Part shown: in pieces, positions 25,866-63,819 of the stretch
Position numbering within the stretch: position 1 is the first letter of the stretch
Layout: each line of letters opens with the position of its first letter
From: a virus
Lineage: Duplodnaviria; Caudoviricetes
Length of the DNA stretch: 64,000 nt
Reading direction: 5' to 3' (one strand)
Virus record (IMG/VR): IMGVR_UViG_3300021960_000017
The notes under the pieces: model-generated
Database searches by the model: none
Seen by the model: the letters and a program-made list of their open reading frames with translations, nothing else
What the model was told of the DNA's origin: nothing
Program-made: the position numbers and the translations under genes

Positions 25866-26779
25866 AAGAACTTTGGACAGAGAAGTACAGGCCAGACAAT
25901 CTAGAAGGGTATGTGTTTAGAGATGATGCTCAAAAGCACCAGGTAGAAGGCTGGATCAAAGCAGGTGCTATTCCACACTTGCTGTTTAGCGGTGCACCTG
26001 GCGTGGGCAAGACTACGCTAGCAAAGATTCTTATCAAACAACTACAAGTAAACGATCTGGATGTGTTAGAGATTAATGCAAGCCGTGAGAATAGTGTTGA
26101 CGCTGTTAGGGAAAAGATTACCAACTTCGTAGCAACTATGCCCTTTGGTGACTTTAAAGTTGTGCTACTTGATGAAGCAGACTATATCAGTCCAAACGGA
26201 CAGGCAGCATTGCGTGGTGTTATGGAAACCTATTCAAGCACTGCAAGGTTTATCCTAACTTGTAACTATCCAAACAAAGTTATTCCTGCACTGCATAGCA
26301 GATGCCAGGGCTTTCACATTGAGAAGATTGATACAACAGAGTTTACTGCTCGCATTGCAACAGTGCTCGTAACAGAAGGCGTGGAAATTGATATTGATAC
26401 ACTGGACAGTTATGTAAAGGCTACCTATCCAGACTTGCGTAAGTGTATCAATCTTGTACAGATGAACACTGTAGACGGCAAACTAGTACGCCCGCAGGAA
26501 TCAGACAGTGCAATGGCTGACTATAGGCTGGCAGTTGTAGACCTGTTTAAGGAAGGTAAACTACTTGAGGCTCGCAAACTCCTATGTAGCCAGGTTCGTG
26601 CAGATGAAATGGATGAACTGTTCCGCTGGATGTATGACAATCTGGAACTGTGGAGTAGCACACAAGAAGGACAGGATCAGGCAGTGTTGATTATTGCAAA
26701 AGGGTTGCGTAACATTCCGCTTGTAGCAGATCAAGAGATTAACTTGGCTGCTACTCTTGTTGAACTATGTCAGATATAA
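25862..26779 (+). CDS. Sliding clamp loader subunit (RFC-small / T4 gp44-like AAA+)
   Basis: LWTEKYRP, GAPGVGKTT, EINAS, LDEAD, LHSRC. Confidence 0.92.
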   Translation: MKELWTEKYRPDNLEGYVFRDDAQKHQVEGWIKAGAIPHLLFSGAPGVGKTTLAKILIKQLQVNDLDVLEINASRENSVDAVREKITNFVATMPFGDFKVVLLDEADYISPNGQAALRGVMETYSSTARFILTCNYPNKVIPALHSRCQGFHIEKIDTTEFTARIATVLVTEGVEIDIDTLDSYVKATYPDLRKCINLVQMNTVDGKLVRPQESDSAMADYRLAVVDLFKEGKLLEARKLLCSQVRADEMDELFRWMYDNLELWSSTQEGQDQAVLIIAKGLRNIPLVADQEINLAATLVELCQI

Positions 26780-46972: not shown

Positions 46973-47830
46973 ATGAACTACTATGATCTCCTTGGTGTAG
47001 AGAAATCTGCATCCGCTGACCAGATTAAAAGTGCTTTTAGGACCAAAGCCAGAAGCACTCATCCTGATGCGGGCGGAGATCCTGAGGATTTTAAGCGTCT
47101 AAATGAAGCATACGAAACACTTAAAGATCCAGGCAAACGTGCTGAATATGACCACGCTAGTAGTGGTGCTGGGCGTATACATGTAAACATTAACGGCAGT
47201 CATCATGACATTTTTAGTAATATTTTTAGAGACATGCACAATGTTTTTGGACAGGAACAGGGACCTTTTGCTGGAACAAGAACATACAGGCGCCAACAAC
47301 GCAATAAAGATTTAAGTATAGAGTACACTTGCAAATTAGAAGACACACTTGCAGAGCAGGTAAAGCAAGTTAGTGTAAAACAAATAAGCGGCGATCGTAG
47401 ATTAGTAGAAATAAAAATACCAATTGGTGTAAAAAATGGTCAGACAATAAGGTATCATAAACTTGGTGACAATACATTTAAGGAGTTGACGCCAGGCGAT
47501 TTACATGTTAAAATTAATATTATTCCAACAAGATTTGAAATTGAAGGGAATAATTTACACTTAAATCATACTATAGACTGTTTTGAAGCAATACTGGGCA
47601 CAACTATACAGGTTAGGACACTGGAAGGCAAAACTCTAAATACAAACATTCCGCCTGGCATACAGCATGGTATGAGCATGGGATTAAAAGGTCATGGGTT
47701 GTATGAGTTTAACAACCCTGGTAACAGAGGCGCATTGCTGGTAAAAGTAAACATCAAAATACCTGAGAACCTAACTCAAGAACAATTAAATATGATTAGA
47801 GCCATTAAGGAAGTTACAGTTGAAACATAG
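46973..47830 (+). CDS. dnaJ: DnaJ/CbpA-like co-chaperone (no Zn finger)
   Basis: J-domain with HPD; C-terminal DnaJ domain (PGDLHV, GALLVKV). Confidence 0.9.
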   Translation: MNYYDLLGVEKSASADQIKSAFRTKARSTHPDAGGDPEDFKRLNEAYETLKDPGKRAEYDHASSGAGRIHVNINGSHHDIFSNIFRDMHNVFGQEQGPFAGTRTYRRQQRNKDLSIEYTCKLEDTLAEQVKQVSVKQISGDRRLVEIKIPIGVKNGQTIRYHKLGDNTFKELTPGDLHVKINIIPTRFEIEGNNLHLNHTIDCFEAILGTTIQVRTLEGKTLNTNIPPGIQHGMSMGLKGHGLYEFNNPGNRGALLVKVNIKIPENLTQEQLNMIRAIKEVTVET

Positions 47831-50087
47831 TCCTCAAATTGACAAAATTGTAGAAATTACAATGAAGGAAGCAAAAAAACGCAATCACAAATATGTGACT
47901 AGCGAACACTTGCTTTATGTACTACTGGGCAACGAACATATATCCGGAATTCTTATAAAATTTGGTGTCCAATTGGACTTGTTTATTGCAGAAGTTCAGG
48001 AATATCTGGACAATAAACTAAAGCCAGAAGAGCAACCTGTAAACGAACCTAAAAAAACACATACTATTGACAGAGTATTCAACCGTGCGTATTCACAAGT
48101 ATTGTTTAGTGGACGCAATGAACTATTAGTAATGGATGTATTAATTAGTTTACTTGCTGAAGCAAACACTATGAGCAGTTATTTTCTACTCAAATACAAT
48201 GTTAACAAAGAAGAACTAATAGAATTTATTACTGTAAATTTTGCCAAAGACTTGTATAATGATCAGGCAAGCAAGTATTATGAAAAGTTATTAGAAGAAT
48301 ATACAACTGACTTTACTAAACTAGCAAAAGATGGTAGTATAGATCCTGCTATTGGTAGAGATTCAATAATAGATGACATTTGCCAGACTATGGCTAGACG
48401 CAACAAAAGTAATGTATTAATGGTTGGAGATCCTGGTGTAGGTAAAACTGCTATAGCAGAAGGTTTGGCAATTAAAATAGTAGAAGATGATGTTCCTGTA
48501 TACCTCAAGGATCATAAAGTTTACAACTTGGATATTGGCGTGTTACTTGCTGGTACTCAGTATAGGGGTCAGTTCGAAGAGCGTGTAAAAGAAGTAATGG
48601 AAGCGTTAATGAACGAGGGTAAATGTATCTTGTTTATTGACGAAGCACATACAATGAAGGGTGCTGGTGCTGGATCCAGCGGCGGTACTGACTTTGCAAA
48701 CATGCTCAAACCATATTTGGGCCGTGGTAAACTTAAAGTTATTGCAAGCACTACCTGGGAAGAATACACAGAGTCATTTGAAAAAGACCGTGCTCTAATG
48801 CGACGCTTCTATCGTGTTACTGTAGATGAGCCAACACCTGCACTAGCAAAGCAAATACTTAATGGTACAGTAAAGTACTATGAAGATTTCCATAATATGG
48901 ATATTTCACCTGACAGTATTGACAGTGCTGTAGATTTAAGTGTCAGATTTATGACTGACAAGCGTTTACCTGACAAGGCATTTGATCTAATTGACAGTGC
49001 CTGTGCAAGACAGAGACTACTGGGTGTAGAACAACCTACAATTACCAAGGAACTTATTGAACTAGAGTGCAGTAAAATTACTGGTATCCCATTGGATCAA
49101 TTAAGCGATACAGTGACTAAAAGCGTAAACCTCATAAAGGTTGAGGAAAAGATCAAGAGCAAAGTTTATGGTCAGGACGAAACTGTAGAAAAGGTAATGG
49201 AAAAAGTTTATGTTAGTAAAGCAGGGCTTGCTCCTAATGATAAACCAATTGGCGTATTCCTTTTCCTAGGCCCAACTGGCACTGGTAAAACAGAACTTGC
49301 TAAACAACTTAGCCAAAGACTTACAATGCAACTGTTACGCTATGACATGAGTGAATATCAGGAACGTCACAGCGTTGCCAGATTTATAGGCGCACCTCCT
49401 GGCTATGTTGGATATGATGATAGCAGTTTAGGCGGCGGGTTATTAATTAGAGATATAGAGCGCAATCCTAACAGCGTTGTCCTGTTTGACGAAATAGAAA
49501 AAGCACACCCTGATGTAACAAATGTTCTCTTACAACTTATGGATGAAGGGTTTATTACTGCTACAAACGGCAAGCGTGTAGACTGTCGTAACACAATTGT
49601 TATTATGACTAGTAACCTGGGTGCACAGGAAATGGAACGCGAGCCCATTGGTTTTGGTAGAACTTCTCGTTCAGGCGAAGATGACAAAGCAATGCAAGAG
49701 TTTTTTAGACCAGAGTTTAGAAACCGCATTGATGCTGTTTGCAAGTTTAACAAACTTGATGCACTTACAAAACGCAAGATTGTTATAAAGTTCGTACAGG
49801 ACTTTACCGACCAATTACAGGAAAAAGGCATCAGTTTACATATAGACGAACCAAGTGTAGATTATATCCTAGATAGAGGATTCGATGAAAAGATGGGTGC
49901 AAGACCTGTTGCTAGAACTGTAGACAAATTACTAAGAGTTCCAGTTAGTAAGGAGTTAGTGGTTGACAACTCGCTAAAAGGCTGTAAAATAAAGGTTAGA
50001 GTTAATAAACATGGTTTACTCCTTAAATTTGTAAGGCAAAATGATGACGAATCTAAGTCAGTTAGAGAAATTAACGTCAAAGTATAA
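47820..50087 (+). CDS. clpA: ClpA-type Clp ATPase with two AAA+ modules
   Basis: Clp-N (EHLL), GDPGVGKT, FIDEAH, RLPDKA, GPTGTGKT, PPGYVG, FDEIEKAH, IGF loop, RPEFRNRID. Confidence 0.92.
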   Translation: MKHSPQIDKIVEITMKEAKKRNHKYVTSEHLLYVLLGNEHISGILIKFGVQLDLFIAEVQEYLDNKLKPEEQPVNEPKKTHTIDRVFNRAYSQVLFSGRNELLVMDVLISLLAEANTMSSYFLLKYNVNKEELIEFITVNFAKDLYNDQASKYYEKLLEEYTTDFTKLAKDGSIDPAIGRDSIIDDICQTMARRNKSNVLMVGDPGVGKTAIAEGLAIKIVEDDVPVYLKDHKVYNLDIGVLLAGTQYRGQFEERVKEVMEALMNEGKCILFIDEAHTMKGAGAGSSGGTDFANMLKPYLGRGKLKVIASTTWEEYTESFEKDRALMRRFYRVTVDEPTPALAKQILNGTVKYYEDFHNMDISPDSIDSAVDLSVRFMTDKRLPDKAFDLIDSACARQRLLGVEQPTITKELIELECSKITGIPLDQLSDTVTKSVNLIKVEEKIKSKVYGQDETVEKVMEKVYVSKAGLAPNDKPIGVFLFLGPTGTGKTELAKQLSQRLTMQLLRYDMSEYQERHSVARFIGAPPGYVGYDDSSLGGGLLIRDIERNPNSVVLFDEIEKAHPDVTNVLLQLMDEGFITATNGKRVDCRNTIVIMTSNLGAQEMEREPIGFGRTSRSGEDDKAMQEFFRPEFRNRIDAVCKFNKLDALTKRKIVIKFVQDFTDQLQEKGISLHIDEPSVDYILDRGFDEKMGARPVARTVDKLLRVPVSKELVVDNSLKGCKIKVRVNKHGLLLKFVRQNDDESKSVREINVKV

Positions 50088-53839: not shown

Positions 53840-53854
53840 CAAATAAATACATGT

Positions 53855-56809
53855 ATGAAAATAAATGAAGCAGTTCAGCAGGTTGTAGCCATATATCCTG
53901 GCAGATTTCACCCTTTCCATAAGGGTCACGCCAGCGTCTACAACTATCTTCGCAACAAGTTCGACACTGTTTTCATTGCTACAAGTGATAAAGTAGACCC
54001 GCCACGCAGTCCTTTTAGTTTTGCTGAAAAGCGAGAAATGATGATTGCTGCTGGTATTCCGCCCAGTGCTATTGTCCAAACTAAAAATCCTTATCAAGCA
54101 CAAGAAATACTACAAGCATACGACCCAGCAACAACCGCAGTTGTGTTTGCTGTTAGCGAAAAGGATATGGCTGAAGATCCTAGATTTAGTTTTGCTAATA
54201 AGAAAGACGGGTCCCCAAGTTATTTCCAGCCTATGGCGCCAAACGCAAAACAAATGCAGTCCTTTGACAAGCATGGTTATATTACTACAGTGCCTACACT
54301 AGATTTTACTGTAGCAGGCGAACCCATGCGTAGTGCTACAGAGCTACGCCGCAACTTTGCAAATGCTGATCCCGAAACTCAAAAGACAATGGTCAATGAT
54401 TTGTATGGTGCGTATAATGATAGAGTTTACCAAATACTAAGCAGCAAACTTGCAGAAAGTTTAATGTTAGAAGACTATGCTAAACTAACCAATATTATAA
54501 ATCGTATCTGGCAACTAGACCTAGAACGTCCACTAAACGAAGAAGTTAAACGCAAAGTTCTAGCAAACATAAAGTTGGCTACAGAAGCCTGGAGCGAAAA
54601 GTACAAGCGTAGCATAAACTGCAACAATCCAAAAGGATTTAGCCAACGAGCTCATTGTCAGGGTCGCAAAAAGAACGAAGACATAAATGAAGCATTTGAT
54701 AGTCCTTATCCACTGGAATGGCAAGTCGAAGCACCCAATGAGTATAGTGCTTGGGCAAAAATTCCTTTTCAAGGTGGCGATTTTAGCTGGTTAAATGTGG
54801 ACTTTGATCAACCAACACAGGGCAATTTTGCTATTGAATTTACACTAGGCGGCAGAACCAAAGCATCAGGGAAAGGAGATGAGTTTAGGATTTTCGCTAC
54901 TGTTATAGAAGCAATTAAGCAGTGGTGGAAAAAAATAGATCAACGATTTGTTGATAGCATATACTTTAGTGCATCAAAAGATCCTAACGACAGCGAACGC
55001 AGACATGTATTATATTCAAGATTTGCTAAACAACTTGCTAGCCAGATTGGTTATACACTTGACGTAACAGATAAAGGCAGATCAGTATCATTTCTTTTAA
55101 CCGCACCAAAGAGAACGTATCAAGTTAAAGAAGAGAGCGGACCTGAGGTCACAATGTGGACTAACCCAGACTGGTTTGGTGCAGATGTAGACACTGACTA
55201 TTGGAATAAACAGCCTGTTAAAGTAATAGACATAGACAAGCTCGTCCCTTATGAACCAGAAGATAAGATGCAGGATCCCAAGTCTGCTGCTAATATGCAG
55301 GCTATTGCTAAAAGGATTCAAGCAGGCGAAAAGATAGATCCTATTGTTATCAGCAAACATGAAGGCAAATGGTTGATACTAGATGGGCATCATAGATACT
55401 TTGCTAGTAAATTAGCTGGTGCTAAAAAAGTAAGAGTGGTAGTAGTAGATCCTAAATATATCACATGGCGTGATGATGTGCCAGATGAGGATTATTATAA
55501 CGAAGTATTAGAGAACCAATACAGCGACCTGGAACTAGCAATCATGGAAGGCGGCCACAGTCTAGAAGAAGGTGTTGGGCGTGATGTTGCTAACTGGGCA
55601 AAGAGACAGTATAGAAAAGTAGTACCCTTTACACAAGCAGATACAAAAGACATGATTGACAACATTGCTAAAGAAAAGGGTATAGATCCTCGTGTTATGC
55701 AAGCAATGGCAGACAAAGAATCTTCTTATAATACTGGCGCAATTGGCGACAAGGGCAAGTCACATGGGTTATTCCAGTTACAAAATATTGCAGTAAAAGA
55801 CATCAATGACTGGTATAAAACAGATTATACTGACAGTGATAGAATGGATCCTGAGACCAATGCTCGTATGGCTGCTATGTATTTACAATTAGCAAAAGAC
55901 AAATACGGTGCTAAAAATGATGCGGAAGCTATCGCTATGTTTAATGGCGGACCCAAGGCCTTAACTAACCGAAATGCAATAAATTATGCCAGAGATGTTG
56001 TAAGCAGAATGAAACGCAACCAACAACGAGTGGTTAGAGAAGCAGGCGTAGGCAAGATTACCAAACAAAATGCAACCAAAGACGCTCCTATTGGCAGCGA
56101 GTTTGCTAATGTTAAAAAGTTAGGTTTGGGTAGCGGCAAGCCACCTGAACTACACAAAAAGGCTCGTAAGAACAGCGACCCAAATACATTATTCAATATT
56201 GGATTGGCGGAAGGCAAAGAAGGCAGTTACCTACTACAACTAGAGCGTGACGATGATCTGCTAGTATTACACATTACACATAGCAGAACAGGCAAGCGCA
56301 CCGAAGTGCGTGGCAAACCAGATTACGAGGGTGATGGATACGATCCCAATGATCAACTGCACCAATTGCTTGACAAGATTGGTAAGGCAGCAAGCATTAG
56401 CGACTTAATGAATGGCGAACTAGTAAGCATCAACCCTGTTCATCCACAGGGCCCAAGTGCTAAAGCACATGCTGAAAAAGCATTTGTAAGTGAGGACTTT
56501 GCTCAAGACCTAGAAGCAGAATTTCCTGGATTAGACTTAGATTTGTATACGACACGATCAGGTTACATATTGAGCAAGATTGTTCTTCCAGTAGGTGAAC
56601 GCAACGAAGGCACTGGCAGCAAAGTAATGCAACGAATTGTTGACATGGCTGATCAGGAAGGAAAACTTATTGCACTAACACCTGATACTGCATTTGGTGG
56701 CACAAAGAGTAGACTAATAAAGTTCTACAAGCGTTTTGGTTTTGTGCCCAACAAGGGACGCAACAAGACTTTTGATTTTAGAGAAATAATGGTTCGCTAT
56801 CCAAATTAA
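53855..56809 (+). CDS. Modular protein: HxGH nucleotidyltransferase + ParB/Srx-like + lytic transglycosylase (SLT) + GNAT
   Basis: YPGRFHPFHKGH; ILDGHHRY; AMADKESS...GLFQL...AMFNGG; GTGSKVM...RLIKFYKRFGF. Confidence 0.8.
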   Translation: MKINEAVQQVVAIYPGRFHPFHKGHASVYNYLRNKFDTVFIATSDKVDPPRSPFSFAEKREMMIAAGIPPSAIVQTKNPYQAQEILQAYDPATTAVVFAVSEKDMAEDPRFSFANKKDGSPSYFQPMAPNAKQMQSFDKHGYITTVPTLDFTVAGEPMRSATELRRNFANADPETQKTMVNDLYGAYNDRVYQILSSKLAESLMLEDYAKLTNIINRIWQLDLERPLNEEVKRKVLANIKLATEAWSEKYKRSINCNNPKGFSQRAHCQGRKKNEDINEAFDSPYPLEWQVEAPNEYSAWAKIPFQGGDFSWLNVDFDQPTQGNFAIEFTLGGRTKASGKGDEFRIFATVIEAIKQWWKKIDQRFVDSIYFSASKDPNDSERRHVLYSRFAKQLASQIGYTLDVTDKGRSVSFLLTAPKRTYQVKEESGPEVTMWTNPDWFGADVDTDYWNKQPVKVIDIDKLVPYEPEDKMQDPKSAANMQAIAKRIQAGEKIDPIVISKHEGKWLILDGHHRYFASKLAGAKKVRVVVVDPKYITWRDDVPDEDYYNEVLENQYSDLELAIMEGGHSLEEGVGRDVANWAKRQYRKVVPFTQADTKDMIDNIAKEKGIDPRVMQAMADKESSYNTGAIGDKGKSHGLFQLQNIAVKDINDWYKTDYTDSDRMDPETNARMAAMYLQLAKDKYGAKNDAEAIAMFNGGPKALTNRNAINYARDVVSRMKRNQQRVVREAGVGKITKQNATKDAPIGSEFANVKKLGLGSGKPPELHKKARKNSDPNTLFNIGLAEGKEGSYLLQLERDDDLLVLHITHSRTGKRTEVRGKPDYEGDGYDPNDQLHQLLDKIGKAASISDLMNGELVSINPVHPQGPSAKAHAEKAFVSEDFAQDLEAEFPGLDLDLYTTRSGYILSKIVLPVGERNEGTGSKVMQRIVDMADQEGKLIALTPDTAFGGTKSRLIKFYKRFGFVPNKGRNKTFDFREIMVRYPN

Positions 56810-56824
56810 AAAAAGAGACCATCA

Positions 56825-57823
56825 ATGAAAAAAACATTGTTAATTACATTTGGTTGTAGTTGGGTCTACGGCGTTGGCGTTAATTATGAAGAAGGCATGT
56901 CCCGGGAAGATTATCAGCTGAATGCGTGGAATCCTGAACTATGTGATGAATACAGTTTTAGAGGTTTAATTAAAAAAAATTTAAATATTGATACTAAGAA
57001 TTTTTCCTTAGGTGGCAGTAGCAATCAAATGCAATTTAGAGAGGCAAAACAATATTTTTTCTCTCAACAATTTATAGACCACAAAGATAGTTACGATAAC
57101 ATTATTGTTTTATGGGGTATTACCTCAACTGCCAGAAATGAGTTTTATTCTGTAGAGGACAAAACATTCCTAAACGTCCTTTACAATACATTTTTTGATA
57201 AATTTGACCCACTTGCTAAAAGCATAACGAAAAAAAATTATGACCTTATAAAACGTCCTAACTGGCCTTCGTGGGAAGATTATAATAATCTTAACCTAGA
57301 CAATATTGATTTAGAAACTTTAAAACAAATTGTTATATCTGAAAAATTACATTTACGAGATATGCAAAAATCTACTACTTTTAGACATCTGTTGGAACAC
57401 ATATTAGGAAAATTTTCCTGGGACGTGGATGCAGCAATATATGAACTTTCGCTAGAGATTAAACTTTTTAATAGTTTTTTCGAAAGTAGTAACATAAAAT
57501 TTTTATGGTATGATTTGTTTAATCACCATGATTATAAAAAAAGTTTTAAAAAATTTGTTGATCCAAGGGCAGAGTGGTTCGAACTAAAAAATTTTTTACA
57601 GTATGATAACAAATCAAGAGACATATTATCCTTAATATTAAAAAATAATAATAGTTTTGTAAAGGACATAGCATATCATTTATCTGAGTGGAAAGATGAC
57701 AATAAAAAAATAAATATGGGTGTAAAGAAAAAGTTATTAAATCCAATTAGTTTTCATCCTACTAAATTGGGGCACGTAGAGATAGCAAAAGTCTTACAAC
57801 CAGAAATAGAAAGGTTTGTTTGA
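56825..57823 (+). CDS. SGNH-like hypothetical protein
   Basis: FGCSWVYG, GGSSN, SFHPTKLGH; internal WPSWEDY module. Confidence 0.55.
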   Translation: MKKTLLITFGCSWVYGVGVNYEEGMSREDYQLNAWNPELCDEYSFRGLIKKNLNIDTKNFSLGGSSNQMQFREAKQYFFSQQFIDHKDSYDNIIVLWGITSTARNEFYSVEDKTFLNVLYNTFFDKFDPLAKSITKKNYDLIKRPNWPSWEDYNNLNLDNIDLETLKQIVISEKLHLRDMQKSTTFRHLLEHILGKFSWDVDAAIYELSLEIKLFNSFFESSNIKFLWYDLFNHHDYKKSFKKFVDPRAEWFELKNFLQYDNKSRDILSLILKNNNSFVKDIAYHLSEWKDDNKKINMGVKKKLLNPISFHPTKLGHVEIAKVLQPEIERFV

Positions 57824-58308
57824 TGTCCAAAGAAAAAGATGTAATAATACACTTTGTACGATTCTGCAAAGACCAACTAAAATTGCCTACAGTGCCCAAA
57901 ATTATTATTAAAGACAAAATTGACGACACAACATTTGGCCAATACAATACGCTAAAGAAAGACATTAGTATACGCACTGGCGACAGACATATTATGGATG
58001 TCTTGAGAACCCTAGCACACGAGCTAGTGCACCATGGCCAGAGACTAATTACACCAGACCTAGATGGAAGCGATGGAAGCGCACATGAAAATCAAGCCAA
58101 TGCTATCGCTGGAGTATTACTTCGTAAATATGGTGAGGACAATCCCAAACTCTACGAACATCTAGAAGAAAGAGCAAGCATAGGAGTACCATTAAGTAGT
58201 GGACTTACGGTAACTATTGCGCCACACAGAGCTCTGAAAGTTAAAAAATCCACACCGGGGAGGCATAGCTATGGAAACCCTAAACCTAAAAGAAAAAATT
58301 CTAAATGA
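57820..58308 (+). CDS. HExxH metallopeptidase-like protein
   Basis: TLAHELVHH ... HENQANA. Confidence 0.7.
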   Translation: MMSKEKDVIIHFVRFCKDQLKLPTVPKIIIKDKIDDTTFGQYNTLKKDISIRTGDRHIMDVLRTLAHELVHHGQRLITPDLDGSDGSAHENQANAIAGVLLRKYGEDNPKLYEHLEERASIGVPLSSGLTVTIAPHRALKVKKSTPGRHSYGNPKPKRKNSK

Positions 58309-58594: not shown

Positions 58595-58857
58595 TGAAAC
58601 TAGAGTGTGAGATATTAACAGAAGACTATAGTAACACCCCTGCTTACAGGGTATTTGTTAATGGCGAGCTAATGACTGAACGTGATTATGTTGTACCACC
58701 AGGCGAAGTAGGACATTACAATTTTATGTGTTACTTAACTTTGCCCGGTGGTGAAAATAAACTTGAAATTCAAGGAATAGGTCATAAGTTTAATATAGGC
58801 ACGATGTGGTTAGATGACAAACAAATAGCTCACAACCAAGGAGTATTTCAGATATGA
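58594..58857 (+). CDS. Hypothetical protein
   Basis: TAATG coupling. Confidence 0.65.
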   Translation: MKLECEILTEDYSNTPAYRVFVNGELMTERDYVVPPGEVGHYNFMCYLTLPGGENKLEIQGIGHKFNIGTMWLDDKQIAHNQGVFQI

Positions 58858-59060
58858 GAATAGACGAATTATTAGAAACAGCAAGCGCAGGTGCTACAAG
58901 CAGCGGCAATATTGCCACTGTGGCAAACCCTACAGTTGCTAGAGGCAAAGGCAAACCAAAAATGCAAAAACCTACTGATAATGCTCTGGATATGGATGCT
59001 AATTTGTTTAGTGGCGGTGCTATTAAGAGAAACACTTCAAAGCCATTAGGTGCTTTGTAG
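58854..59060 (+). CDS. Putative internal virion protein
   Basis: MRIDELLE leader. Confidence 0.6.
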   Translation: MRIDELLETASAGATSSGNIATVANPTVARGKGKPKMQKPTDNALDMDANLFSGGAIKRNTSKPLGAL

Positions 59061-59095
59061 CATAAATACATATATAATCTTTTAAAGGTACAACT

Positions 59096-60190
59096 ATGAG
59101 ATTCCGCGATTTTAAACCAGTTGTTAAAGAGAGCAAAACTCCAGAGCAAATTAAACTTGACTACTGTAGAGGGCTTATTACAAAAGAAGACGCGGTTTCT
59201 AGTCTTAAAAAGTTAGCGGAAGAAACTGACGCTGAAAAAGAATTTAATGCAGCATTTGATAAAGAATACAAAAAAGCATTTGGCGACAAAAAGCCAGCAC
59301 AATCTAAAAGAGAGCCTGAAAAATTTGGTGGTCTCGGAAGCCAGCAAGCATACGACGAATATAAACAAGATTTAGAAAAAAGACAAGCATCTATGCTTAT
59401 GCGCCGTGCCAAACCAGGCGACGCAATGGATCCTTGGGATCCAGATGATGGTAATGTATATAAAGACGAAACAACATGGCATTTAGATCCGAATTTTTCA
59501 GGATCACCAGGCGACTTTGAGCAACCTTGGATGAAAGTAAACACAAAATATACAGTAGGCCCAGATGGTCGTATAGATTTTGGGCAGCGTAAACCCTACA
59601 AAGACGACAGACCTCCTCAATACCAAGAATTATCAGATAAAGAATGGGCTGCATTTAAAAAATCTCAACTAAGAGTAGATTATCCAAATACTCCTAATGA
59701 CAAATTGCCATGGTACTTAAGAAAGGACGATCCAGATTTTGTACCATATATGAGCGGCAAAAAACCATCAGGTGGTGATGCAGATCCAGCTGGTATGACT
59801 GGTGCTACTGCCGCTGGTACTCCATCAAGGGGTGGTGATGCAGATCCAGGCGGTATGACTGGTGCTGATGCTGCTGGTACTCCAGCAAAACCATCAGGCA
59901 AAGGACCTAACTTACAAACTAATTTAGGTAGAAGTAGAACTGACAAATCAAATCAGTCTGACGATACTGGGCCAGATGATAAAGAAGCAGCCCGTATTGC
60001 AAAAAGATCAGAAAAAAGACAAGCAGCGAAACAAGATAGTTTAGACGACTTGAGTTTTGGCAACGCATTTAAAAGAGCCCGTAAAGCACATGGCGGCGCC
60101 GGCGGCATATTTACTTGGCGTGGTAGAAGATACCAAACAAATATAAAAGGCGAACGATATGTTAAGAATCCAACGCCGGTACAAATATAA
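59096..60190 (+). CDS. Putative internal virion protein with 20-aa tandem repeat
   Basis: MRFRDF leader; late motif upstream; C-terminal SFGNAFKRARK...FTWRGRRYQT. Confidence 0.65.
   Translation: MRFRDFKPVVKESKTPEQIKLDYCRGLITKEDAVSSLKKLAEETDAEKEFNAAFDKEYKKAFGDKKPAQSKREPEKFGGLGSQQAYDEYKQDLEKRQASMLMRRAKPGDAMDPWDPDDGNVYKDETTWHLDPNFSGSPGDFEQPWMKVNTKYTVGPDGRIDFGQRKPYKDDRPPQYQELSDKEWAAFKKSQLRVDYPNTPNDKLPWYLRKDDPDFVPYMSGKKPSGGDADPAGMTGATAAGTPSRGGDADPGGMTGADAAGTPAKPSGKGPNLQTNLGRSRTDKSNQSDDTGPDDKEAARIAKRSEKRQAAKQDSLDDLSFGNAFKRARKAHGGAGGIFTWRGRRYQTNIKGERYVKNPTPVQI
59771..59890 (+). repeat. Two in-frame 60-bp tandem repeat units
   Basis: GGDADPAGMTGATAAGTPSR / GGDADPGGMTGADAAGTPAK. Confidence 0.9.
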
Positions 60191-60202
60191 CTAGGAAAAA
60201 AC

Positions 60203-60748
60203 ATGAAAGACATACTTAACAAACTTGATAAAATCTTAAATGAAGGCATGCTAGGCGACATGGCACATGCCTGTGAAGCAGATCATGAAGTTCAGATGGC
60301 TCGTGCAGATCTTTTCAAGATTGCAAAGTATGCTATTAAACTACATGACATGATGAAAAATGTTAGCGAAATGGAAGGCATCCAGGGCTGGCAGCAAGCA
60401 AAGATTACAAAGGCTGCTGATTATTTAAGCAGCGTTTATCACAATTTAGACTATGAAATGAGTCCACTTAACCAAGCTCCAGAAGGTTCAGACACTGATG
60501 AAGTTATGGCACAGATGGCTTATGATCTTGCCGCTGATGATGAAATTGAAGAAGATAAAGTTCCATTGCCACCAAAGCGTCCAGAACCAAAGGCAGCGTC
60601 ATACACTGATGCACAGAGAAAATCAATGGACGATGCAGTAGACGTAATTACAAAGTCAGCAGAAGAAGAAGATGCAAAAAAGCGTAGAAACGAATCTACA
60701 GACTTAGGTAGAGCAACTAGAAAATTCAGCGATTGGGGAAAAAGATGA
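60203..60748 (+). CDS. Putative head-associated protein
   Basis: DHEVQMARADL...WQQAKITKAADYLSSVYH core; Glu-delimited segments. Confidence 0.65.
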   Translation: MKDILNKLDKILNEGMLGDMAHACEADHEVQMARADLFKIAKYAIKLHDMMKNVSEMEGIQGWQQAKITKAADYLSSVYHNLDYEMSPLNQAPEGSDTDEVMAQMAYDLAADDEIEEDKVPLPPKRPEPKAASYTDAQRKSMDDAVDVITKSAEEEDAKKRRNESTDLGRATRKFSDWGKR

Positions 60749-61263
60749 ACGACTTTACAAGCCTAGTTAAAAAACTAAACGAGATTAGTGACAGAGCAGA
60801 AGTTACTACAATTAATGAAAGTGTAGAACAGCCTGTAGCACGAACATCTAGTGATGTGAAGTCAACAGCAAAAATCCTACGCAAGTTTAGTGAAATTGAA
60901 TCTGAAATCGTTGCTGAAGAAGCTCAAGCAAAAGAAGATGTTACTAGCGATATCAGCAATCGTTTTAGAGAGTTTATGAAAAGCGAAGTTGGTCAGGGTA
61001 ATGACCTTGAATCAGTAAACACTGCTGTTCACGAAGCCCACACAACTGCAACTATTTTATCAGGAAGCATAGGTGTACTAGCTGACAGTTTAAAGCGTCA
61101 ACTAGAAGCTACAAAAGAAGGTGGCGTATTACAACGCATGGTAGAACGTGAAGGTGGCGATACAACTCACATTGCAAAGGCATACGAAGCTCTTAAATTA
61201 GCCGCAGAGGCTCTTGACGCAGCACATATGTATGCAGTAAAATTAGACGACCAAAAGAAGTAG
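60745..61263 (+). CDS. Putative head-associated/scaffold-like protein
   Basis: Helical, Glu-rich; KKLNE leader. Confidence 0.6.
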   Translation: MNDFTSLVKKLNEISDRAEVTTINESVEQPVARTSSDVKSTAKILRKFSEIESEIVAEEAQAKEDVTSDISNRFREFMKSEVGQGNDLESVNTAVHEAHTTATILSGSIGVLADSLKRQLEATKEGGVLQRMVEREGGDTTHIAKAYEALKLAAEALDAAHMYAVKLDDQKK

Positions 61264-61273
61264 AGAAAAAATT

Positions 61274-61927
61274 ATGAGAGCATTTGAGTTTACCAACGAA
61301 CAAACAAAAGTTGCCCCGTTAACCAGAGTTGCACCACTCACTAGAGTTGCTCCTGGTACCCGTGTTACAGGAAGTGAACCTAGTAGATGGGCAAAAAGTA
61401 TGGGTAGCGATGCTGCTGCTAATGAAAAGAAACGAGCAGAAATATTAGCTCGTATGGAACGAGAACGCCCTGATTTCGAAAGAGCTGTACAAGGTCTGTC
61501 TGATACAGAATTAGCTGCTGCCAGAGAAAAGTATGCACAAAGTTTAGGACTAAGAAATGCACAGGCTATGATAAACCTAGCAACAGGTTATGAAGCAGGC
61601 ACAGGACAAATTAATCCAGATTACGACAAAGAACTACAAGCAAACAAAGCAGCCAATACTCAGGATATGACACAATATGGTGCTGCCAGAAGAGGTAACG
61701 CAAGTGTGCAATCTCCTTTTATAAGTTCACAACCTAAAAAGGCTGAGCCTGCACCTACACCAGCAGCACCTACACCTGCTCCGAAAGCAGATGCAGATGA
61801 TAACCAAGGCCAATCTCAGGTTGATGCTGTTGCTAAACAAGGACGTTCACAAGTTAATGCTGTTGCCAAATCAGGCATGGATGCTGTAAATGCATTAATG
61901 AGGAACGCTGGTTTAAGAGTAAGATAA
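61274..61927 (+). CDS. Putative internal virion protein
   Basis: MRAFEF leader; VAPLTR x2 / VAPGTR micro-repeat. Confidence 0.6.
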   Translation: MRAFEFTNEQTKVAPLTRVAPLTRVAPGTRVTGSEPSRWAKSMGSDAAANEKKRAEILARMERERPDFERAVQGLSDTELAAAREKYAQSLGLRNAQAMINLATGYEAGTGQINPDYDKELQANKAANTQDMTQYGAARRGNASVQSPFISSQPKKAEPAPTPAAPTPAPKADADDNQGQSQVDAVAKQGRSQVNAVAKSGMDAVNALMRNAGLRVR

Positions 61928-62118
61928 TGCGAGCAAAAGAGTTTCAACCTAAAGCATTGACTGAAGCAGAATTTGACGAAGCAGCAGGTGAAAAGGATGC
62001 TTGCTATCGTAAAGTTAAAGCTCGTTACAAAGTATGGCCCAGTGCATATGCTAGTGGTGCTCTAGTAAAGTGTCGCAAAGTGGGTGCTGCCAACTGGGGA
62101 AACAAGAGTAAAAAGTAA
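61927..62118 (+). CDS. Small basic Cys-containing protein
   Basis: MRAKEF leader; DACYRKVKARYKVWPSAYASGALVKCRK. Confidence 0.7.
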   Translation: MRAKEFQPKALTEAEFDEAAGEKDACYRKVKARYKVWPSAYASGALVKCRKVGAANWGNKSKK

Positions 62119-62372
62119 TGCTTATTACAGAAGTAGTACAAGAGGATCTACGAAAATGGTTCAAAGAGAAATGGGTTCGCTTTGGTCCTGACGGTAAGAT
62201 ACGTGGAGATTGTGCTAGAGGTAGTGAAAGCGAAGGTAAGCCTAAATGTTTGCCACAAAAGAAAGCACACGCATTAGGTAAAAAAGGGCGCAAGACGGCA
62301 GCAAGTCGTAAACGCAGGGAAGATCCCGATAAAAACAGACGCGGCAAAGCAAAAAACGTCGCTACAAAGTAG
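62118..62372 (+). CDS. Small basic Cys-containing protein
   Basis: MLITE leader; LRKWFKEKWV...KPKCLP. Confidence 0.7.
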   Translation: MLITEVVQEDLRKWFKEKWVRFGPDGKIRGDCARGSESEGKPKCLPQKKAHALGKKGRKTAASRKRREDPDKNRRGKAKNVATK

Positions 62373-62381
62373 AAATAAACT

Positions 62382-63287
62382 ATGCTATTTTTAAATTACG
62401 CTGAGTTTTATTTAACCAACGTATGTAATTTGTCATGTCCAGGCTGTAACAGGTTTAACAGTTTTAATTTTAAAGGGCATCAACGTTGGTCAGATTTAAA
62501 AGACACTTATACTAAATGGGCTAAAGTTTTACACCTAGGCAATTTTGGGATTTTGGGCGGAGAACCATTACTAAATCCTAATTTTATGGATTGGTTAATT
62601 GGAACAACTGACTTATGGCCCAAATCAACATGTAGGTTAACTACAAATGGTTTTAGACTTAATAAAGTCAAAGGCTTGTACGATGTATTAAAAAGTCGTC
62701 CTAAAATTCAAATGTCAGTTGGTATTCATAATAAAATGCACAAGCGGGAAATAATGAATATTTTAGAAGAATTCCTTGCTGGGCCGCTTAAAATAGAACA
62801 CGATAATTCTAATAAATATCAGCAAAAGTTGTATATCACCGATTCTAATGATGTAAAAGTTAGAGTAGAATATAATTGGTGGTTTCATCAGGGAGCAATC
62901 ATTCCTAACGATCAAGGAAAGTTAACTTTGCATAACAGTGATCCAGATAAAGCGCATAGTATTTGCCACAGTTCAGAATGTCATCATTTTGCATATGGCA
63001 AATTATACAAATGCGGCGCCAGTGCGCTGTTTTCAGAGTTTGACGAACAGATAGGTTTAGAACTAGATTCTAAAGATAGAGAATTAATTAATAATGTAAA
63101 TTCATTATCAGTGGATGACGATTTAGAAACACAAAAACTGTTTATAGAAAATATAAAAAACCCTATACCACAATGTAAATTTTGTCCTGAAGTTTATATT
63201 GGAGATCAAATTTTTGCCTTAAAGAAAAAGGATATATTGGCCCAGCAACGAGAGAGTACAAATGAGATTTTCCGAGTTAACACATAA
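62382..63287 (+). CDS. Radical SAM protein
   Basis: CNLSCPGC, LGGEPLL, TTNG, C-terminal CHS..C..C / CKFC. Confidence 0.88.
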   Translation: MLFLNYAEFYLTNVCNLSCPGCNRFNSFNFKGHQRWSDLKDTYTKWAKVLHLGNFGILGGEPLLNPNFMDWLIGTTDLWPKSTCRLTTNGFRLNKVKGLYDVLKSRPKIQMSVGIHNKMHKREIMNILEEFLAGPLKIEHDNSNKYQQKLYITDSNDVKVRVEYNWWFHQGAIIPNDQGKLTLHNSDPDKAHSICHSSECHHFAYGKLYKCGASALFSEFDEQIGLELDSKDRELINNVNSLSVDDDLETQKLFIENIKNPIPQCKFCPEVYIGDQIFALKKKDILAQQRESTNEIFRVNT

Positions 63288-63819
63288 ACCTACACCAGTA
63301 GAATTAGCAATTAAAGAACATATTGCAAGAGGCGTTCCTTTTAGCGAATGCATGTTTCGTCCAGGTAGTAAAGCGTTTACAGAGTTCTATAACACCCTAA
63401 GAGAAATGCGTGATACTCTAGAGTTAGATTGGCAGGATCAGGAACTACTTGATACAGATATTGGCGAATGTGTTGTTATTGAAGGTGAACGTGTTCCTCT
63501 TGATGTTCCTATTGAAGAAGAAGTTGAACTTGATGAAGCAGAATATCAGGGCAAGCAAGTTAAACTTAATTCTCCAAAGCGTGGCGGAAGCAAAAAGTTC
63601 TATGTATATGTAAAGAACCCAAAGACTGATCGTGTTAAAAAAATTAGTTGGGGTGACACAACGGGCCTAAGTGTAAAGGCCAAAAACCGCGGCGCAGTTC
63701 GTAGTTTTGTTGCACGACATAAATGTATGCAAGCCAATGACAAACTTACTGCAAGATACTGGAGTTGCCGCACACCACGCTATAAAGCACTTGGTGTTAA
63801 AGGCGGAGCTTGGTGGTGA
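63262..63819 (+). CDS. Putative internal virion protein with basic C-terminal domain
   Basis: MRFSEL leader; KKFYVYVKNP...ARHKC...ARYWSC. Confidence 0.7.
   Translation: MRFSELTHKPTPVELAIKEHIARGVPFSECMFRPGSKAFTEFYNTLREMRDTLELDWQDQELLDTDIGECVVIEGERVPLDVPIEEEVELDEAEYQGKQVKLNSPKRGGSKKFYVYVKNPKTDRVKKISWGDTTGLSVKAKNRGAVRSFVARHKCMQANDKLTARYWSCRTPRYKALGVKGGAWW

What the first reader, a model, noticed from the sequence alone, without database searches (positions are those of the whole stretch)
53855..56809. 984-aa multi-enzyme ORF that looks like a protease-processed virion polyprotein
Seen: nucleotidyltransferase, ParB/Srx-like, lytic transglycosylase and GNAT domains plus small modules (e.g. KYKRSINCNNPKGFSQRAHC). 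They are separated by Glu-ended linkers: KLAE, LMLE, PLNE, LATE, DINE, VKEE, VLE, SLEE, VVRE, GLAE, FVSE. It has a MKINE leader and a late motif upstream. Established: T4-type prohead protease cuts after (L/I)-x-E and processes internal proteins such as Alt. Inference: a packaged polyprotein cut into separate enzymes and ejected at infection, for wall penetration, host-protein nucleotidylation or acetylation, or counter-defence.
Basis: partly seen in the sequence, partly recalled or inferred. Interest (0 to 1): 0.8.

Follow-up and report, generated by a model that had tools for sequence, protein, structure and literature searches.

The report
Phage cargo polyprotein with protease joints
A 984-residue gene of an uncultured marine T4-like phage strings about ten small enzymes and peptides together, and each joint carries the T4 head protease's cutting motif, so it is probably a polyprotein that is loaded into the phage head, cut up there, and injected into the host with the DNA.

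Summary
The ORF (53855-56809, +) is real. It encodes an HxGH nucleotidyltransferase, a ParB/Srx-like domain, an SLT lytic transglycosylase, two GNAT-fold modules and several small modules.

The number of [LI]-x-E motifs in this protein alone is at chance (7 seen, 6.9 expected). Their placement is not random.

- In 86 non-redundant homologs the modules are shuffled in order and copy number. Homology breakpoints fall at [LIVFM]-x-E: 33% of such sites are junctions, against 5.5% for [LIVFM]-x-D and 9% for all positions. A second set of 48 ORFs repeated this.
- The junction logo is I/V/L - x - E | A/S/G.
- Inside modules [LI]-x-E is halved (obs/exp 0.50). Control motifs and other ORFs of the window are not depleted.
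- 78% of family members start with a short leader ending in the motif (here MKINE). T4 Alt is processed at ITE-6.
- Related contigs encode a gp21-type protease, and the scaffold gene beside it is enriched in the motif.
- Homologs carry Acb1, a CCA-adding/poly(A) polymerase, kinase, NT5C and SOD modules.

Packaging, cleavage and ejection are inferred, not shown. The gp21 gene of this phage's own genome could not be checked. I rate it a new variant of known kinds (T4 internal proteins and polyvalent proteins). First-stage notes of this scan describe similar mosaics on other DNA.

The parts
53842..53849 (+). AATAAATA, T4-late-promoter-like motif (7 of 8), ending 5 nt before the ATG; no Shine-Dalgarno
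   Evidence: not enriched window-wide; function not tested
53855..56809 (+). 984-aa polyprotein ORF (P0001)
53855..53869 (+). Leader M-K-I-N-E (aa 1-5), predicted propeptide ending in I-x-E
   Evidence: 67 of 86 relatives have [LIVFM]xE in the first 16 aa against 23% background, mostly M[KR][ILF]xE. T4 Alt is processed at ITE-6 (PMC5694885)
53870..54457 (+). Module A (aa 6-201): HxGH nucleotidyltransferase, NMNAT/PPAT-like; ends K-L-A-E201
   Evidence: Pfam PF01467. The FHKGH and RSATELR motifs are visible in the sequence. PDB NMNAT 2qjt at 4e-4. Conserved K[IL]xE at the end with divergent followers
54458..54586 (+). Small helical spacer modules (aa 202-229, ending L-N-E229; aa 230-244, ending A-T-E244)
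   Evidence: AF2 helices; breakpoints
54587..54691 (+). Module C (aa 245-279): basic two-Cys module (WSEKYKRSINC...AHC), ends I-N-E279
   Evidence: About 70% identical to small ORFs or segments of T4-like cyanophages. S-SM2_108 carries it behind the leader MKTLKQFLKE, between gp16 and gp17
54692..55132 (+). Module D (aa 280-426): DUF6934-like GNAT-fold domain, begins AFDSPYP, ends V-K-E426
   Evidence: phrog_6387; Atlas; AF2 plus Foldseek GNAT matches at 1e-4. Always preceded by [ILVFY]-[NT]-E in 25 different contexts
55133..55513 (+). Module E (aa 427-553): ParB/Srx-like domain (DGHHR), ends V-L-E553; missing exactly between the Glu sites in the 96%-identical variant P0002
55514..55570 (+). 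Short spacer peptide (aa 554-572, ...LAIMEGGHSLEE), an independent mini-module in relatives
   Evidence: E|IYTPLAIAIMEGG... follows module G in many homologs and is followed there by other modules
55571..56041 (+). Module F (aa 573-729): SLT family lytic transglycosylase (ES...GLFQ...NGG motifs), ends V-R-E729
   Evidence: Pfam PF01464 at 1.7e-13
56042..56212 (+). Module G (aa 730-786): conserved but predicted-disordered 57-aa peptide (AGVGKITKQN...NSDPNTLFNIGLAE); candidate head-targeting element
   Evidence: AF2 pLDDT below 50. Single copy in 62 of 86 relatives. 547 clusters in a library of 1.84 billion proteins; 89 of 140 are N-terminal, right after the leader; ends [LMI]xE
56213..56494 (+). 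Module H (aa 787-880): folded alpha/beta domain of unknown function (...YLLQLERD...), ends V-S-E880
   Evidence: AF2 pLDDT about 80; no fold or family match
56495..56806 (+). Module I (aa 881-984): mini-GNAT acetyltransferase-like domain
   Evidence: phrog_10691 at 8e-30. tblastn to 'DarB-like' and 'PLxRFG' giant virion proteins. Foldseek Naa50 at 8e-4; AcrVA5 with TM 0.67 normalised by target
57823..58308 (+). Neighbouring ORF: HExxH zincin-like module (P0386); fused in frame to the polyprotein in P0002 and placed after module G in other relatives
58854..63819 (+). Downstream cluster of small ORFs with leaders ending in [ILV]xE; some carry modules that are fused into polyproteins elsewhere

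Best explanation
The gene encodes a modular cargo polyprotein of a marine T4-like jumbo phage.

Proposed mechanism:
1. The 984-aa precursor is made late in infection.
2. It is built into the prohead core. The targeting element is unknown. Candidates are the MKINE leader and the disordered module G.
3. During head maturation the phage's gp21-type serine protease cuts after [I/L/V]-x-Glu at the exposed joints: E5, E201, E229, probably E244, E279, E426, E553, probably E572, E729, E786 and E880.
4. This releases about ten pieces: an NMNAT/PPAT-like adenylyltransferase, a basic Cys module, a DUF6934 GNAT-fold domain, a ParB/Srx-like domain, an SLT lytic transglycosylase, a 57-aa disordered peptide, an unknown alpha/beta domain, a mini-GNAT, and spacer peptides.
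5. The pieces stay in the head and enter the host with the DNA. There they would act on the cell wall, on nucleotide cofactors, on DNA and on host proteins, probably as take-over and counter-defence effectors.

Because every module ends in the same protease joint, modules can be added, lost, duplicated or swapped without affecting delivery.

Shown here: the ORF, the domain identities, the shuffling, and the junction-specific enrichment and interior depletion of the motif. Inferred: late expression, packaging, cleavage by gp21, ejection, and the function of each module.
For: 1. Shuffling. There are 748 homologs with different module orders and partners. The variant P0002, about 96% identical, lacks the ParB module exactly between two Glu sites. 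It also has the downstream zincin ORF fused in frame through ...QLSE|SS....

2. Junction motif.
- [LIVFM]xE sites are homology breakpoints in 32.9% of cases, against 5.5% with Asp at P1, 1.5-14% with the other P1 residues, and 9% for all positions.
- With Glu at P1, P3 = I, L or V gives 34-37%, against 0-26% for the other P3 residues.
- 68% of 597 junctions have the motif within 5 residues, against 18% for random positions. Control motifs reach at most 18%.
- The result was repeated on 48 ORFs found independently through module G: 34.5% for Glu against 4.3% for Asp.
- The junction logo is P3 I/V/L, P1 E, P1' A/S/G. This matches what is published for gp21: cleavage after Glu in a short motif, ITE-6 and LTE-619 in Alt, LIE-9 in gp21, and Asp at P1 blocking processing (PMC5694885, PMC9026906).

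3. Avoidance. Inside modules [LI]xE is at 0.50 of expectation (z = -7.8). [LI]xD is at 1.19, [LI]xQ at 1.51 and [LI]xK at 1.35. In 64 other ORFs of the same window [LI]xE is at 1.16.

4. Leaders. 67 of 86 relatives start with a short leader ending in the motif, whatever the first module is.

5. Protease.
- Peptidase_S77 (gp21) was found in 3 of 12 fragmentary related contigs. Each of the three also encodes a bead-like polyprotein.
- The gp22-like scaffold gene beside it has 16 and 20 [LI]xE sites, against 6.4 and 8.6 expected.
- One of these contigs, G006, has a clamp loader 67% identical to the window's. The nearest cultured phage is at 56%.

6. Links to virions.
- The cyanophage S-SM2 protein that carries module C has the leader MKTLKQFLKE, close to the T4 capsid-targeting sequence MKTYQEFIAE. 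It lies between gp16 and gp17.
- Module D in cultured T4-like vibriophages follows MIIFE| (next to the alt gene) or ...NLTE|.
- Module I resembles segments of 'DarB-like' giant virion proteins.

7. Structure. E426, E729 and E786 lie in low-confidence or disordered stretches. E229 and E880 lie between helices.
Against: - There is no proteomic or expression evidence for this protein or for any close relative. No cultured phage carries modules G or H.
- The gp21 gene of this phage's own genome could not be checked. No whole genome is held, and the contig is not in the searchable collections.
- The motif count in this single protein is at chance.
- Six [LIVFM]xE sites lie inside folded modules: E58, E102, E107, E352, E915 and E977. 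E201 and E279 sit in predicted, low-confidence helices.
- The 5-aa leader is shorter than the 10-aa T4 capsid-targeting sequence.
- The late-promoter match is imperfect, and the motif is not enriched in the window.
- An HExxH peptidase-like module is encoded two genes downstream and is fused into relatives. It offers another candidate protease.
- Homologs are related to one another, so the z-scores overstate independence.
Confidence: 0.65

Rival explanations
1. It is an uncleaved polyvalent protein. The whole 110-kDa multidomain protein works, or is packaged, intact, as N4 vRNAP and many Iyer-type polyvalent proteins are. The Glu-ended joints are then only conserved linker or helix-cap sequences that tolerate recombination.
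For: - Multi-effector architecture and mosaicism match polyvalent proteins.
- Some joints are predicted to be helical.
- The motif count in this protein alone is at chance.
Against: - A passive linker does not explain the strict Glu-not-Asp rule at P1, the I/L/V rule at P3 or the small P1' residue.
- It does not explain the two-fold avoidance of the motif inside modules.
- It does not explain the short N-terminal leaders that end in the same motif.
Confidence: 0.13
2. It is a polyprotein cut by a protease other than the prohead protease. Candidates are the HExxH zincin-like module (encoded at 57823-58308 and fused into relatives) or a host Glu-specific protease. Cutting might happen in the cytoplasm or after injection, as Iyer et al. 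proposed for the MPTase domains of polyvalent proteins.
For: - The zincin-like module is adjacent, is fused in frame in P0002, and commonly follows module G in relatives.
- Iyer et al. propose autoprocessing of this kind (PMC5512222).
Against: - The junction logo equals the known gp21 specificity.
- The gp22-like scaffold in related phages is enriched in the same motif.
- Many family members lack any peptidase module.
- From general knowledge, zincins usually select on P1' hydrophobic residues rather than on P1 Glu.
Confidence: 0.12
3. It is a cytoplasmic multifunctional enzyme that is never packaged. It would act inside the infected cell, with the modular joints a by-product of cassette recombination.
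For: - The gene lies far from the structural genes in related contigs.
- Its neighbours include metabolic and chaperone genes.
- Acb1 is not known to me to be packaged in T4 (general knowledge).
Against: - An SLT domain has no cytoplasmic substrate.
- The leaders and the motif statistics point to a head-protease substrate.
- Relatives of modules C, D and I occur in virion-linked contexts.
Confidence: 0.06

Closest known systems
T4 internal (ejection) proteins IPI-III and Alt, processed by the prohead protease gp21 (PMC9026906, PMC5694885)
   Same: - Short N-terminal propeptide ending in [I/L]-x-E: the 10-aa capsid-targeting sequence of the internal proteins, and ITE-6 in Alt.
- Cleavage after Glu; Alt is also cut at an internal, C-terminal site (LTE-619).
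- The cargo is an enzyme or anti-defence protein injected with the DNA.
- The cargo sets are hypervariable among T4-like phages.
   Different: - Here about ten unrelated cargoes are concatenated in one ORF, each joint carrying a site. In T4 each cargo has its own gene and leader.
- The leader is only 5 aa.
- A conserved disordered module (G) may take over targeting.
- No experimental evidence exists.
Polyvalent proteins of phages and conjugative elements (Iyer, Burroughs, Anantharaman, Aravind 2017, PMC5512222), such as P1 DarB/DdrB and N4 vRNAP
   Same: - Two to fifteen unrelated effector domains in one polypeptide, with extreme mosaicism.
- Predicted capsid packaging.
- ParB-like, lytic transglycosylase and zincin peptidase domains.
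- The C-terminal GNAT-like module matches 'DarB-like' giants.
   Different: - That paper proposes autoprocessing by an in-built MPTase domain, or no processing. [quoted passage not shown]
- Here there is a uniform trans-protease motif at every joint, in T4-like phages.
- No Pfam LPD or MPTase family was detected in this protein.
Ejection proteins of phiKZ, 201phi2-1 and SPN3US, processed at (A/S/G)-x-E by gp175/gp245 (PMC5694885, PMC7411985)
   Same: - A gp21-related protease cutting after Glu in a 3-residue motif.
- Many head-internal proteins are processed, sometimes at several sites.
   Different: - P3 is small (A/S/G) there and I/L/V here; [AG]xE shows no depletion here.
- Those substrates lose long propeptides rather than being split into many enzymes.
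Polyproteins of RNA viruses cut by a viral protease at uniform junction motifs (general knowledge)
   Same: The logic is the same: one ORF, a uniform short cleavage motif at each joint, and release of separate functional proteins.
   Different: - This is a dsDNA tailed phage.
- The products are accessory cargo, not the replication or structural core.
- The module set is combinatorially variable.
- There is no homology.
T7 gp16 internal core protein with a lytic transglycosylase domain (general knowledge)
   Same: An SLT-type domain carried inside the head and ejected to help cross the peptidoglycan.
   Different: - A podovirus core protein that is not cut into modules.
- No sequence relationship was tested here.
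AcrVA5 mini-GNAT anti-CRISPR (PDB 6iuf) and Acb1 anti-CBASS (PF23474)
   Same: - Module I is a mini-GNAT of about 100 aa, the size and fold of AcrVA5 (TM 0.67 normalised by target).
- The homolog P0007 carries an Acb1 module at 7e-18, flanked by VRE| and VAE|.
   Different: - The similarity to AcrVA5 is structural only (E about 1.6e-3, 17% identity), and the target is unknown.
- Acb1 is in a relative, not in this protein.

Membership tests
Substrates of the T4-type prohead protease gp21 (head-internal / ejection proteins) | Cleavage motif [I/L]-x-E at the processed boundaries | tested here: met
   Motif present at 8-10 module joints of P0001. Family-wide, junctions are enriched, the signal is specific for Glu at P1 and I/L/V at P3, and the motif is depleted inside modules
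Substrates of the T4-type prohead protease gp21 (head-internal / ejection proteins) | Short N-terminal propeptide ending in the motif | tested here: met
   MKINE|A; 67 of 86 relatives have such a leader against 23% background. T4 Alt is processed at ITE-6
Substrates of the T4-type prohead protease gp21 (head-internal / ejection proteins) | 10-residue T4-like capsid-targeting sequence (MKTYQEFIAE type) | tested here: not met
   The leader is only 5 aa. A T4-like 10-mer, MKTLKQFLKE, occurs on the cyanophage protein that carries module C
Substrates of the T4-type prohead protease gp21 (head-internal / ejection proteins) | The same phage encodes a Peptidase_S77 (gp21) protease | tested here: inconclusive
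   The phage's own genome is not searchable. PF03420 was found in 3 of 12 fragmentary related contigs that also carry polyproteins. G006 is related through a clamp loader at 67% identity
Substrates of the T4-type prohead protease gp21 (head-internal / ejection proteins) | Present in virions with processed termini | not testable with these tools
   Needs virion mass spectrometry
Polyvalent proteins (Iyer et al. 2017) | Several unrelated effector domains in one phage polypeptide, with variable architectures among relatives | tested here: met
Polyvalent proteins (Iyer et al. 2017) | Signature domains (MPTase zincin, DdrB-like ParB, LPD families) | tested here: inconclusive
   ParB_N is below the Pfam cut-off and no LPD or MPTase Pfam hit was found. 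An HExxH module is in a neighbouring ORF and is fused into relatives
SLT lytic transglycosylase (PF01464) | Profile match above the cut-off, plus the catalytic Glu-Ser and GLxQ / NGG motifs | tested here: met
   50.6 bits against 21.3. KESS, GLFQLQ and FNGGP are visible in the translation
HxGH nucleotidyltransferase (PF01467) | Profile match above the cut-off, plus the HxGH and SxxxxR motifs | tested here: met
   33.5 bits against 21. FHKGH at 20-24 and RSATELR at 159-165. Nearest solved structures are NMNAT and PPAT
GNAT acetyltransferases | GNAT fold with the acetyl-CoA motif A | tested here: inconclusive
   Module I: Pfam 16 bits, below 27; a motif-A-like stretch (NEGTGSKV); Foldseek Naa50 at 8e-4 and AcrVA5. 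Module D: Foldseek GNATs at 1e-4. Activity is untested

The most novel reading that the evidence does not exclude
Abundant marine T4-like phages use a true polyprotein strategy. The prohead-protease motif acts as a universal joint. Any enzyme can be plugged into a single head-targeted precursor: Acb1 anti-CBASS, CCA-adding enzyme, NMNAT-like, mini-GNATs, kinases, SOD, lytic transglycosylase. The precursor may be targeted by the disordered module G. The enzymes would be delivered pre-made with the DNA. This would give a rapidly reshuffled, pre-packaged counter-defence arsenal and a new portable capsid-targeting element.
Probability: 0.45. Interest if true: 0.88.

Novelty: new variant of a known kind. 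Interest (0 to 1): 0.78.

Why it matters
If correct, this extends two known ideas: T4 internal proteins and polyvalent proteins. It adds a mechanism not described for tailed phages, as far as seven full-text searches could tell: multi-enzyme polyproteins whose every joint is a prohead-protease site.

- It would explain how large marine phages deliver many effectors at the moment of DNA entry, before any phage gene is expressed. In relatives the cargo includes known counter-defence enzymes such as Acb1.
- It gives a simple rule, [I/L/V]-x-E|[A/S/G] at module borders together with avoidance of the motif inside modules. The rule can be used to annotate hundreds of unannotated mosaic ORFs and to delimit new small domains.
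- It offers a natural design for loading several cargo proteins into T4-type heads from one construct.
- Module G, which is conserved, disordered, single-copy and mostly N-terminal, is a concrete candidate for a new capsid-targeting element.

Tried and rejected
- Counting motifs in the single protein gave a chance-level result, so it is not evidence.
- Nucleotide search against cultured phages found no match. tblastn of modules G and H against cultured phages found none.
- The phage's own genome is not held. The exact contig is absent from IMG/VR and from the JGI metagenome contigs.
- I tried to find the phage's own gp21 through the longest-contig column of a homolog search.
- PF03420 and PF07068 were not found in the closest IMG/VR relative, G001. 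This is uninformative because the record is a 57%-complete fragment.
- A full-length fragment alignment (A2) was misaligned by MAFFT and was dropped. Two regional alignments were used instead.
- Atlas and Foldseek gave no usable match for module H or for modules B and C.
- Exact TATAAATA is not enriched in the window. The sigma-70 and terminator scans were at background.
- The cyanophage virion 'citidylyltransferase' T4-GC190 (PMC3037559) is only a parallel. tblastn did not link it to module A.
- I considered and rejected DNA-level linker homology as the sole cause of the motif. P4, P2 and P1' vary while P3 and P1 are constrained.
- No complex prediction was run.
Full report
**Observation.** The window has one long frame at 53855-56809 on the + strand, encoding 984 aa (P0001).
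- Pfam finds CTP_transf_like (residues 13-100; 33.5 bits, cut-off 21) and SLT (600-713; 50.6 bits, cut-off 21.3).
- Two further matches are below cut-off: ParB_N (465-531) and Acetyltransf_7 (915-964).
- PHROGs supports the ParB-like and cytidyltransferase assignments. It also matches residues 274-421 to phrog_6387, and the C-terminus (877-983) to a 3,925-position giant-protein profile, phrog_10691, at 8e-30.
- The HxGH and SxxxxR motifs of the nucleotidyltransferase, the ES / GLFQ / NGG motifs of the transglycosylase and DGHHR of the ParB-like domain can be read directly in the translation.
- The upstream 'late motif' is AATAAATA, ending 5 nt before the ATG, with no Shine-Dalgarno. Exact TATAAATA is not enriched in the window.

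**Is the motif more than chance?** In this protein alone it is not. [LI]xE occurs 7 times against 6.9 expected from shuffling, and [LIV]xE 14 times against 10.7. The signal lies in where the sites sit.

**Homologs and shuffling.** A search of 5.8 billion proteins gave 748 relatives, almost all from marine metagenomes, several on contigs of 200-300 kb.
- BLAST of P0001 against the best 119 shows that it is a string of modules. In relatives the modules recur in different orders, copy numbers and company.
- The modules are: A 6-201; small spacers 202-244; C 245-279; D 280-426; E 427-553; a spacer 554-572; F 573-729; G 730-786; H 787-880; I 881-984.
- At every border, and in many unrelated neighbour contexts, the last residues before the next module read hydrophobic-x-Glu. 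Examples:
  - ...NKIKE| at the end of module A;
  - ...SNESVNE| before AFDNPYP (module D) or GYKLQLERD (module H);
  - ...LFNLGLAE| followed by at least six different modules;
  - ...AFNE| followed by A or S.
- P0002 is about 96% identical to P0001. It lacks the ParB module exactly between two Glu sites. It also has the downstream zincin ORF fused in frame through ...QLSE|SS....

**Statistics.**
- Set: 86 non-redundant relatives, with breakpoints taken from all-against-all BLAST.
- [LIVFM]xE sites are junctions in 32.9% of cases. With Asp at P1 the figure is 5.5%, with the other residues 1.5-14%, and for all positions 9%.
- With Glu at P1, P3 = I, L or V gives 34-37%, against 0-26% for other P3 residues.
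- 68% of 597 junctions have the motif within 5 residues, against 18% for random positions. Control motifs are at or below chance.
- The junction logo is P3 I/V/L (83%), P1 E, P1' A/S/G (58%).
- A second sample gave the same picture: 34.5% for Glu against 4.3% for Asp. It comprised 48 non-redundant ORFs from IMG/VR loci retrieved only through module G.
- Inside modules [LI]xE is at half its expected frequency (118 against 238, z = -7.8). [LI]xD, [LI]xQ, [LI]xK, [AG]xE and [DN]xE are at 1.1-1.5 of expectation.
- In 64 other ORFs of the same window [LI]xE is at 1.16.
- Enrichment at joints together with avoidance inside modules is what selection by a protease of this specificity would produce.
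- The sequences are related to one another, so the z-scores overstate independence. The effect sizes and the Glu-against-Asp contrast do not depend on that.

**Leaders.** 67 of 86 relatives have the motif within the first 16 residues, against a 23% background. Most have M-[KR]-[ILF]-x-E at residue 5, whatever module comes first. Published work shows the following (PMC5694885, PMC9026906):
- T4 Alt loses six N-terminal residues at ITE-6 and 63 C-terminal residues at LTE-619.
- The T4 internal proteins carry a 10-residue capsid-targeting sequence that is removed after Glu.
- Asp at that position blocks processing.

**The protease.**
- No whole genome is held for this window, and its contig could not be fetched.
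- Among 12 long but fragmentary IMG/VR contigs that carry module G, three hold a Peptidase_S77 (gp21) gene above the Pfam cut-off. In the two loci examined (L083, L085) it lies next to a gp22-like coiled-coil scaffold gene.
- The same three contigs encode bead-like polyproteins of 686 to 1,188 aa. Their leaders include MKFKDIKVKE|.
- The scaffold proteins carry 16 and 20 [LI]xE sites against 6.4 and 8.6 expected. This fits a conserved T4-like specificity.
- One of these contigs, G006, has a clamp loader 67% identical to the window's. The nearest cultured phages, the PA5oct group, are at 56%.
- Earlier notes of this scan call the genome a marine T4-like phage with a capsid gene about 150 kb upstream of the window. 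I could not verify that directly.

**What the modules are.**
- Module A is nearest to NMN and phosphopantetheine adenylyltransferases. A small-molecule adenylyltransferase is therefore more likely than a protein nucleotidylating enzyme.
- Module D is DUF6934-like with a GNAT fold.
- Module E is ParB/Srx-like; the nearest solved structure is SbnI.
- Module F is an SLT lytic transglycosylase.
- Module G is highly conserved but predicted to be disordered (pLDDT below 50). It occurs once per protein in 62 of 86 relatives. It is found in 547 clusters of the 1.84-billion-protein library. In 89 of 140 clusters it sits at the N-terminus right after the leader, and it ends in [LMI]xE. It is a candidate targeting element; this is inference.
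- Module H is a confident alpha/beta fold with no match.
- Module I is a mini-GNAT of about 100 residues. Its best size-matched structural neighbour is the anti-CRISPR acetyltransferase AcrVA5, a weak match by fold only. It resembles parts of 'DarB-like' and 'PLxRFG' giant virion proteins.
- Relatives plug in other cargo: Acb1 anti-CBASS (7e-18, flanked by VRE| and VAE|), a poly(A)/CCA polymerase head domain (9e-34), NT5C, Zeta-toxin-like kinases, Cu/Zn SOD (8e-44), further GNATs and M78-like peptidases.

**Links to cultured T4-like phages.**
- Module C occurs in cyanophage S-SM2 behind the leader MKTLKQFLKE, between the terminase genes gp16 and gp17.
- In other cyanophages module C is part of 700-aa bead-like proteins.
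- Module D occurs in Vibrio schizo-T4 phages. In 6E35.1a it follows MIIFE|AF... next to alt. In ValKK3 it follows ...NLTE|AFD..., between two genes annotated as prohead protease inhibitors.
- These phages are tractable test systems.

**Structure and the joints.** In the two AlphaFold models, E426, E729 and E786 lie in low-confidence or disordered stretches. E229 and E880 lie between helices. E201 and E279 lie in low-confidence helical segments. This is compatible with accessible joints but is not decisive.

**Context.**
- Two genes downstream lies an HExxH zincin-like module (57823-58308). It is fused to polyproteins in relatives.
- Between it and the polyprotein sits an SGNH-like hydrolase gene without a leader.
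- Further downstream (58854-63819) several small ORFs begin with leaders ending in [ILV]xE.
- The locus therefore looks like an internal-protein cassette region.

**Comparison with what is known.**
- The system works like T4 internal proteins and Alt (leader, Glu-specific head protease, injected cargo). Here many cargoes are concatenated in one ORF.
- It fits the description of polyvalent proteins (PMC5512222). That paper invokes in-built MPTase autoprocessing, or no processing. [quoted passage not shown]
- phiKZ and SPN3US substrates use A/S/G-x-E and lose propeptides; they are not cut into many enzymes.
- None of the seven full-text searches turned up a description of prohead-protease-delimited polyproteins in tailed phages.
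- First-stage notes of this scan report similar Glu-delimited mosaics and leader arrays on other genomes. These are unverified and are not independent evidence.

**Verdict.** Packaging, cleavage and ejection are still inferred. My confidence in the head-protease polyprotein model is about 0.65. The rivals are an uncleaved polyvalent protein (0.13), another protease (0.12) and an unpackaged enzyme (0.06). Novelty: a new variant of known kinds. Interest: 0.78.

Noticed in passing
window 57823-58308 (+): A 161-aa ORF with an HExxH zincin motif (LAHELVHHGQ) and a basic tail. It is fused in frame to the polyprotein in the 96%-identical variant P0002, and it follows module G in other relatives.
   Followed up: partly
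window 56825-57823 (+): A 332-aa SGNH/GDSL-like hydrolase (FGCSW start) without a leader, inserted between the polyprotein and the zincin ORF. It must be absent from the variant that encodes P0002, where the flanking genes are fused.
   Followed up: no
window 58854-63819 (+): A run of small ORFs whose N-termini end in [ILV]xE (for example MRFRDFKPVVKE, MLITE, MRFSE, MRAKEFQPKALTE). Some carry small basic Cys modules (weak DUF5872 match) that are fused into bead-like proteins in cyanophages. It looks like an internal-protein cassette locus.
   Followed up: partly
window 56042-56212 (module G); L003-L082: A 57-aa peptide that is highly conserved yet predicted to be disordered. It occurs once per protein, mostly at the N-terminus after an MK[IL]xE leader, in 547 protein clusters. 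It also occurs as stand-alone proteins of 60-140 aa.
   Followed up: partly
L083:477-3249 and L085:247-2719: A T4-like head-core gene order in related contigs: acidic protein, gp21-type protease, gp22-like scaffold. The scaffold is 2.3-2.5-fold enriched in [LI]xE.
   Followed up: partly
P0007 (homolog, 1574 aa); L044:5980-9531: Relatives carry an Acb1 anti-CBASS module (7e-18) and a poly(A)/CCA-adding polymerase head domain (9e-34) as beads flanked by [ILV]xE. P0007 and others also hold a YHATYR/VYHYTT segment that another note of this scan read as ART-like; I did not test that.
   Followed up: partly
L086:2318-2746 (Synechococcus phage S-SM2, SSM2_108): A small cyanophage protein between gp16 and gp17. 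Its leader MKTLKQFLKE closely resembles the T4 capsid-targeting sequence MKTYQEFIAE, and it carries the same two-Cys module as residues 245-279 here.
   Followed up: partly
window 47820-50087 and 25862-26779: The ClpA-like ATPase and the clamp loader have their nearest cultured relatives in the PA5oct group of Pseudomonas jumbo phages (39% and 56% identity). This places the phage among large, distant T4-type myoviruses rather than classical cyanophages or pelagimyophages.
   Followed up: partly
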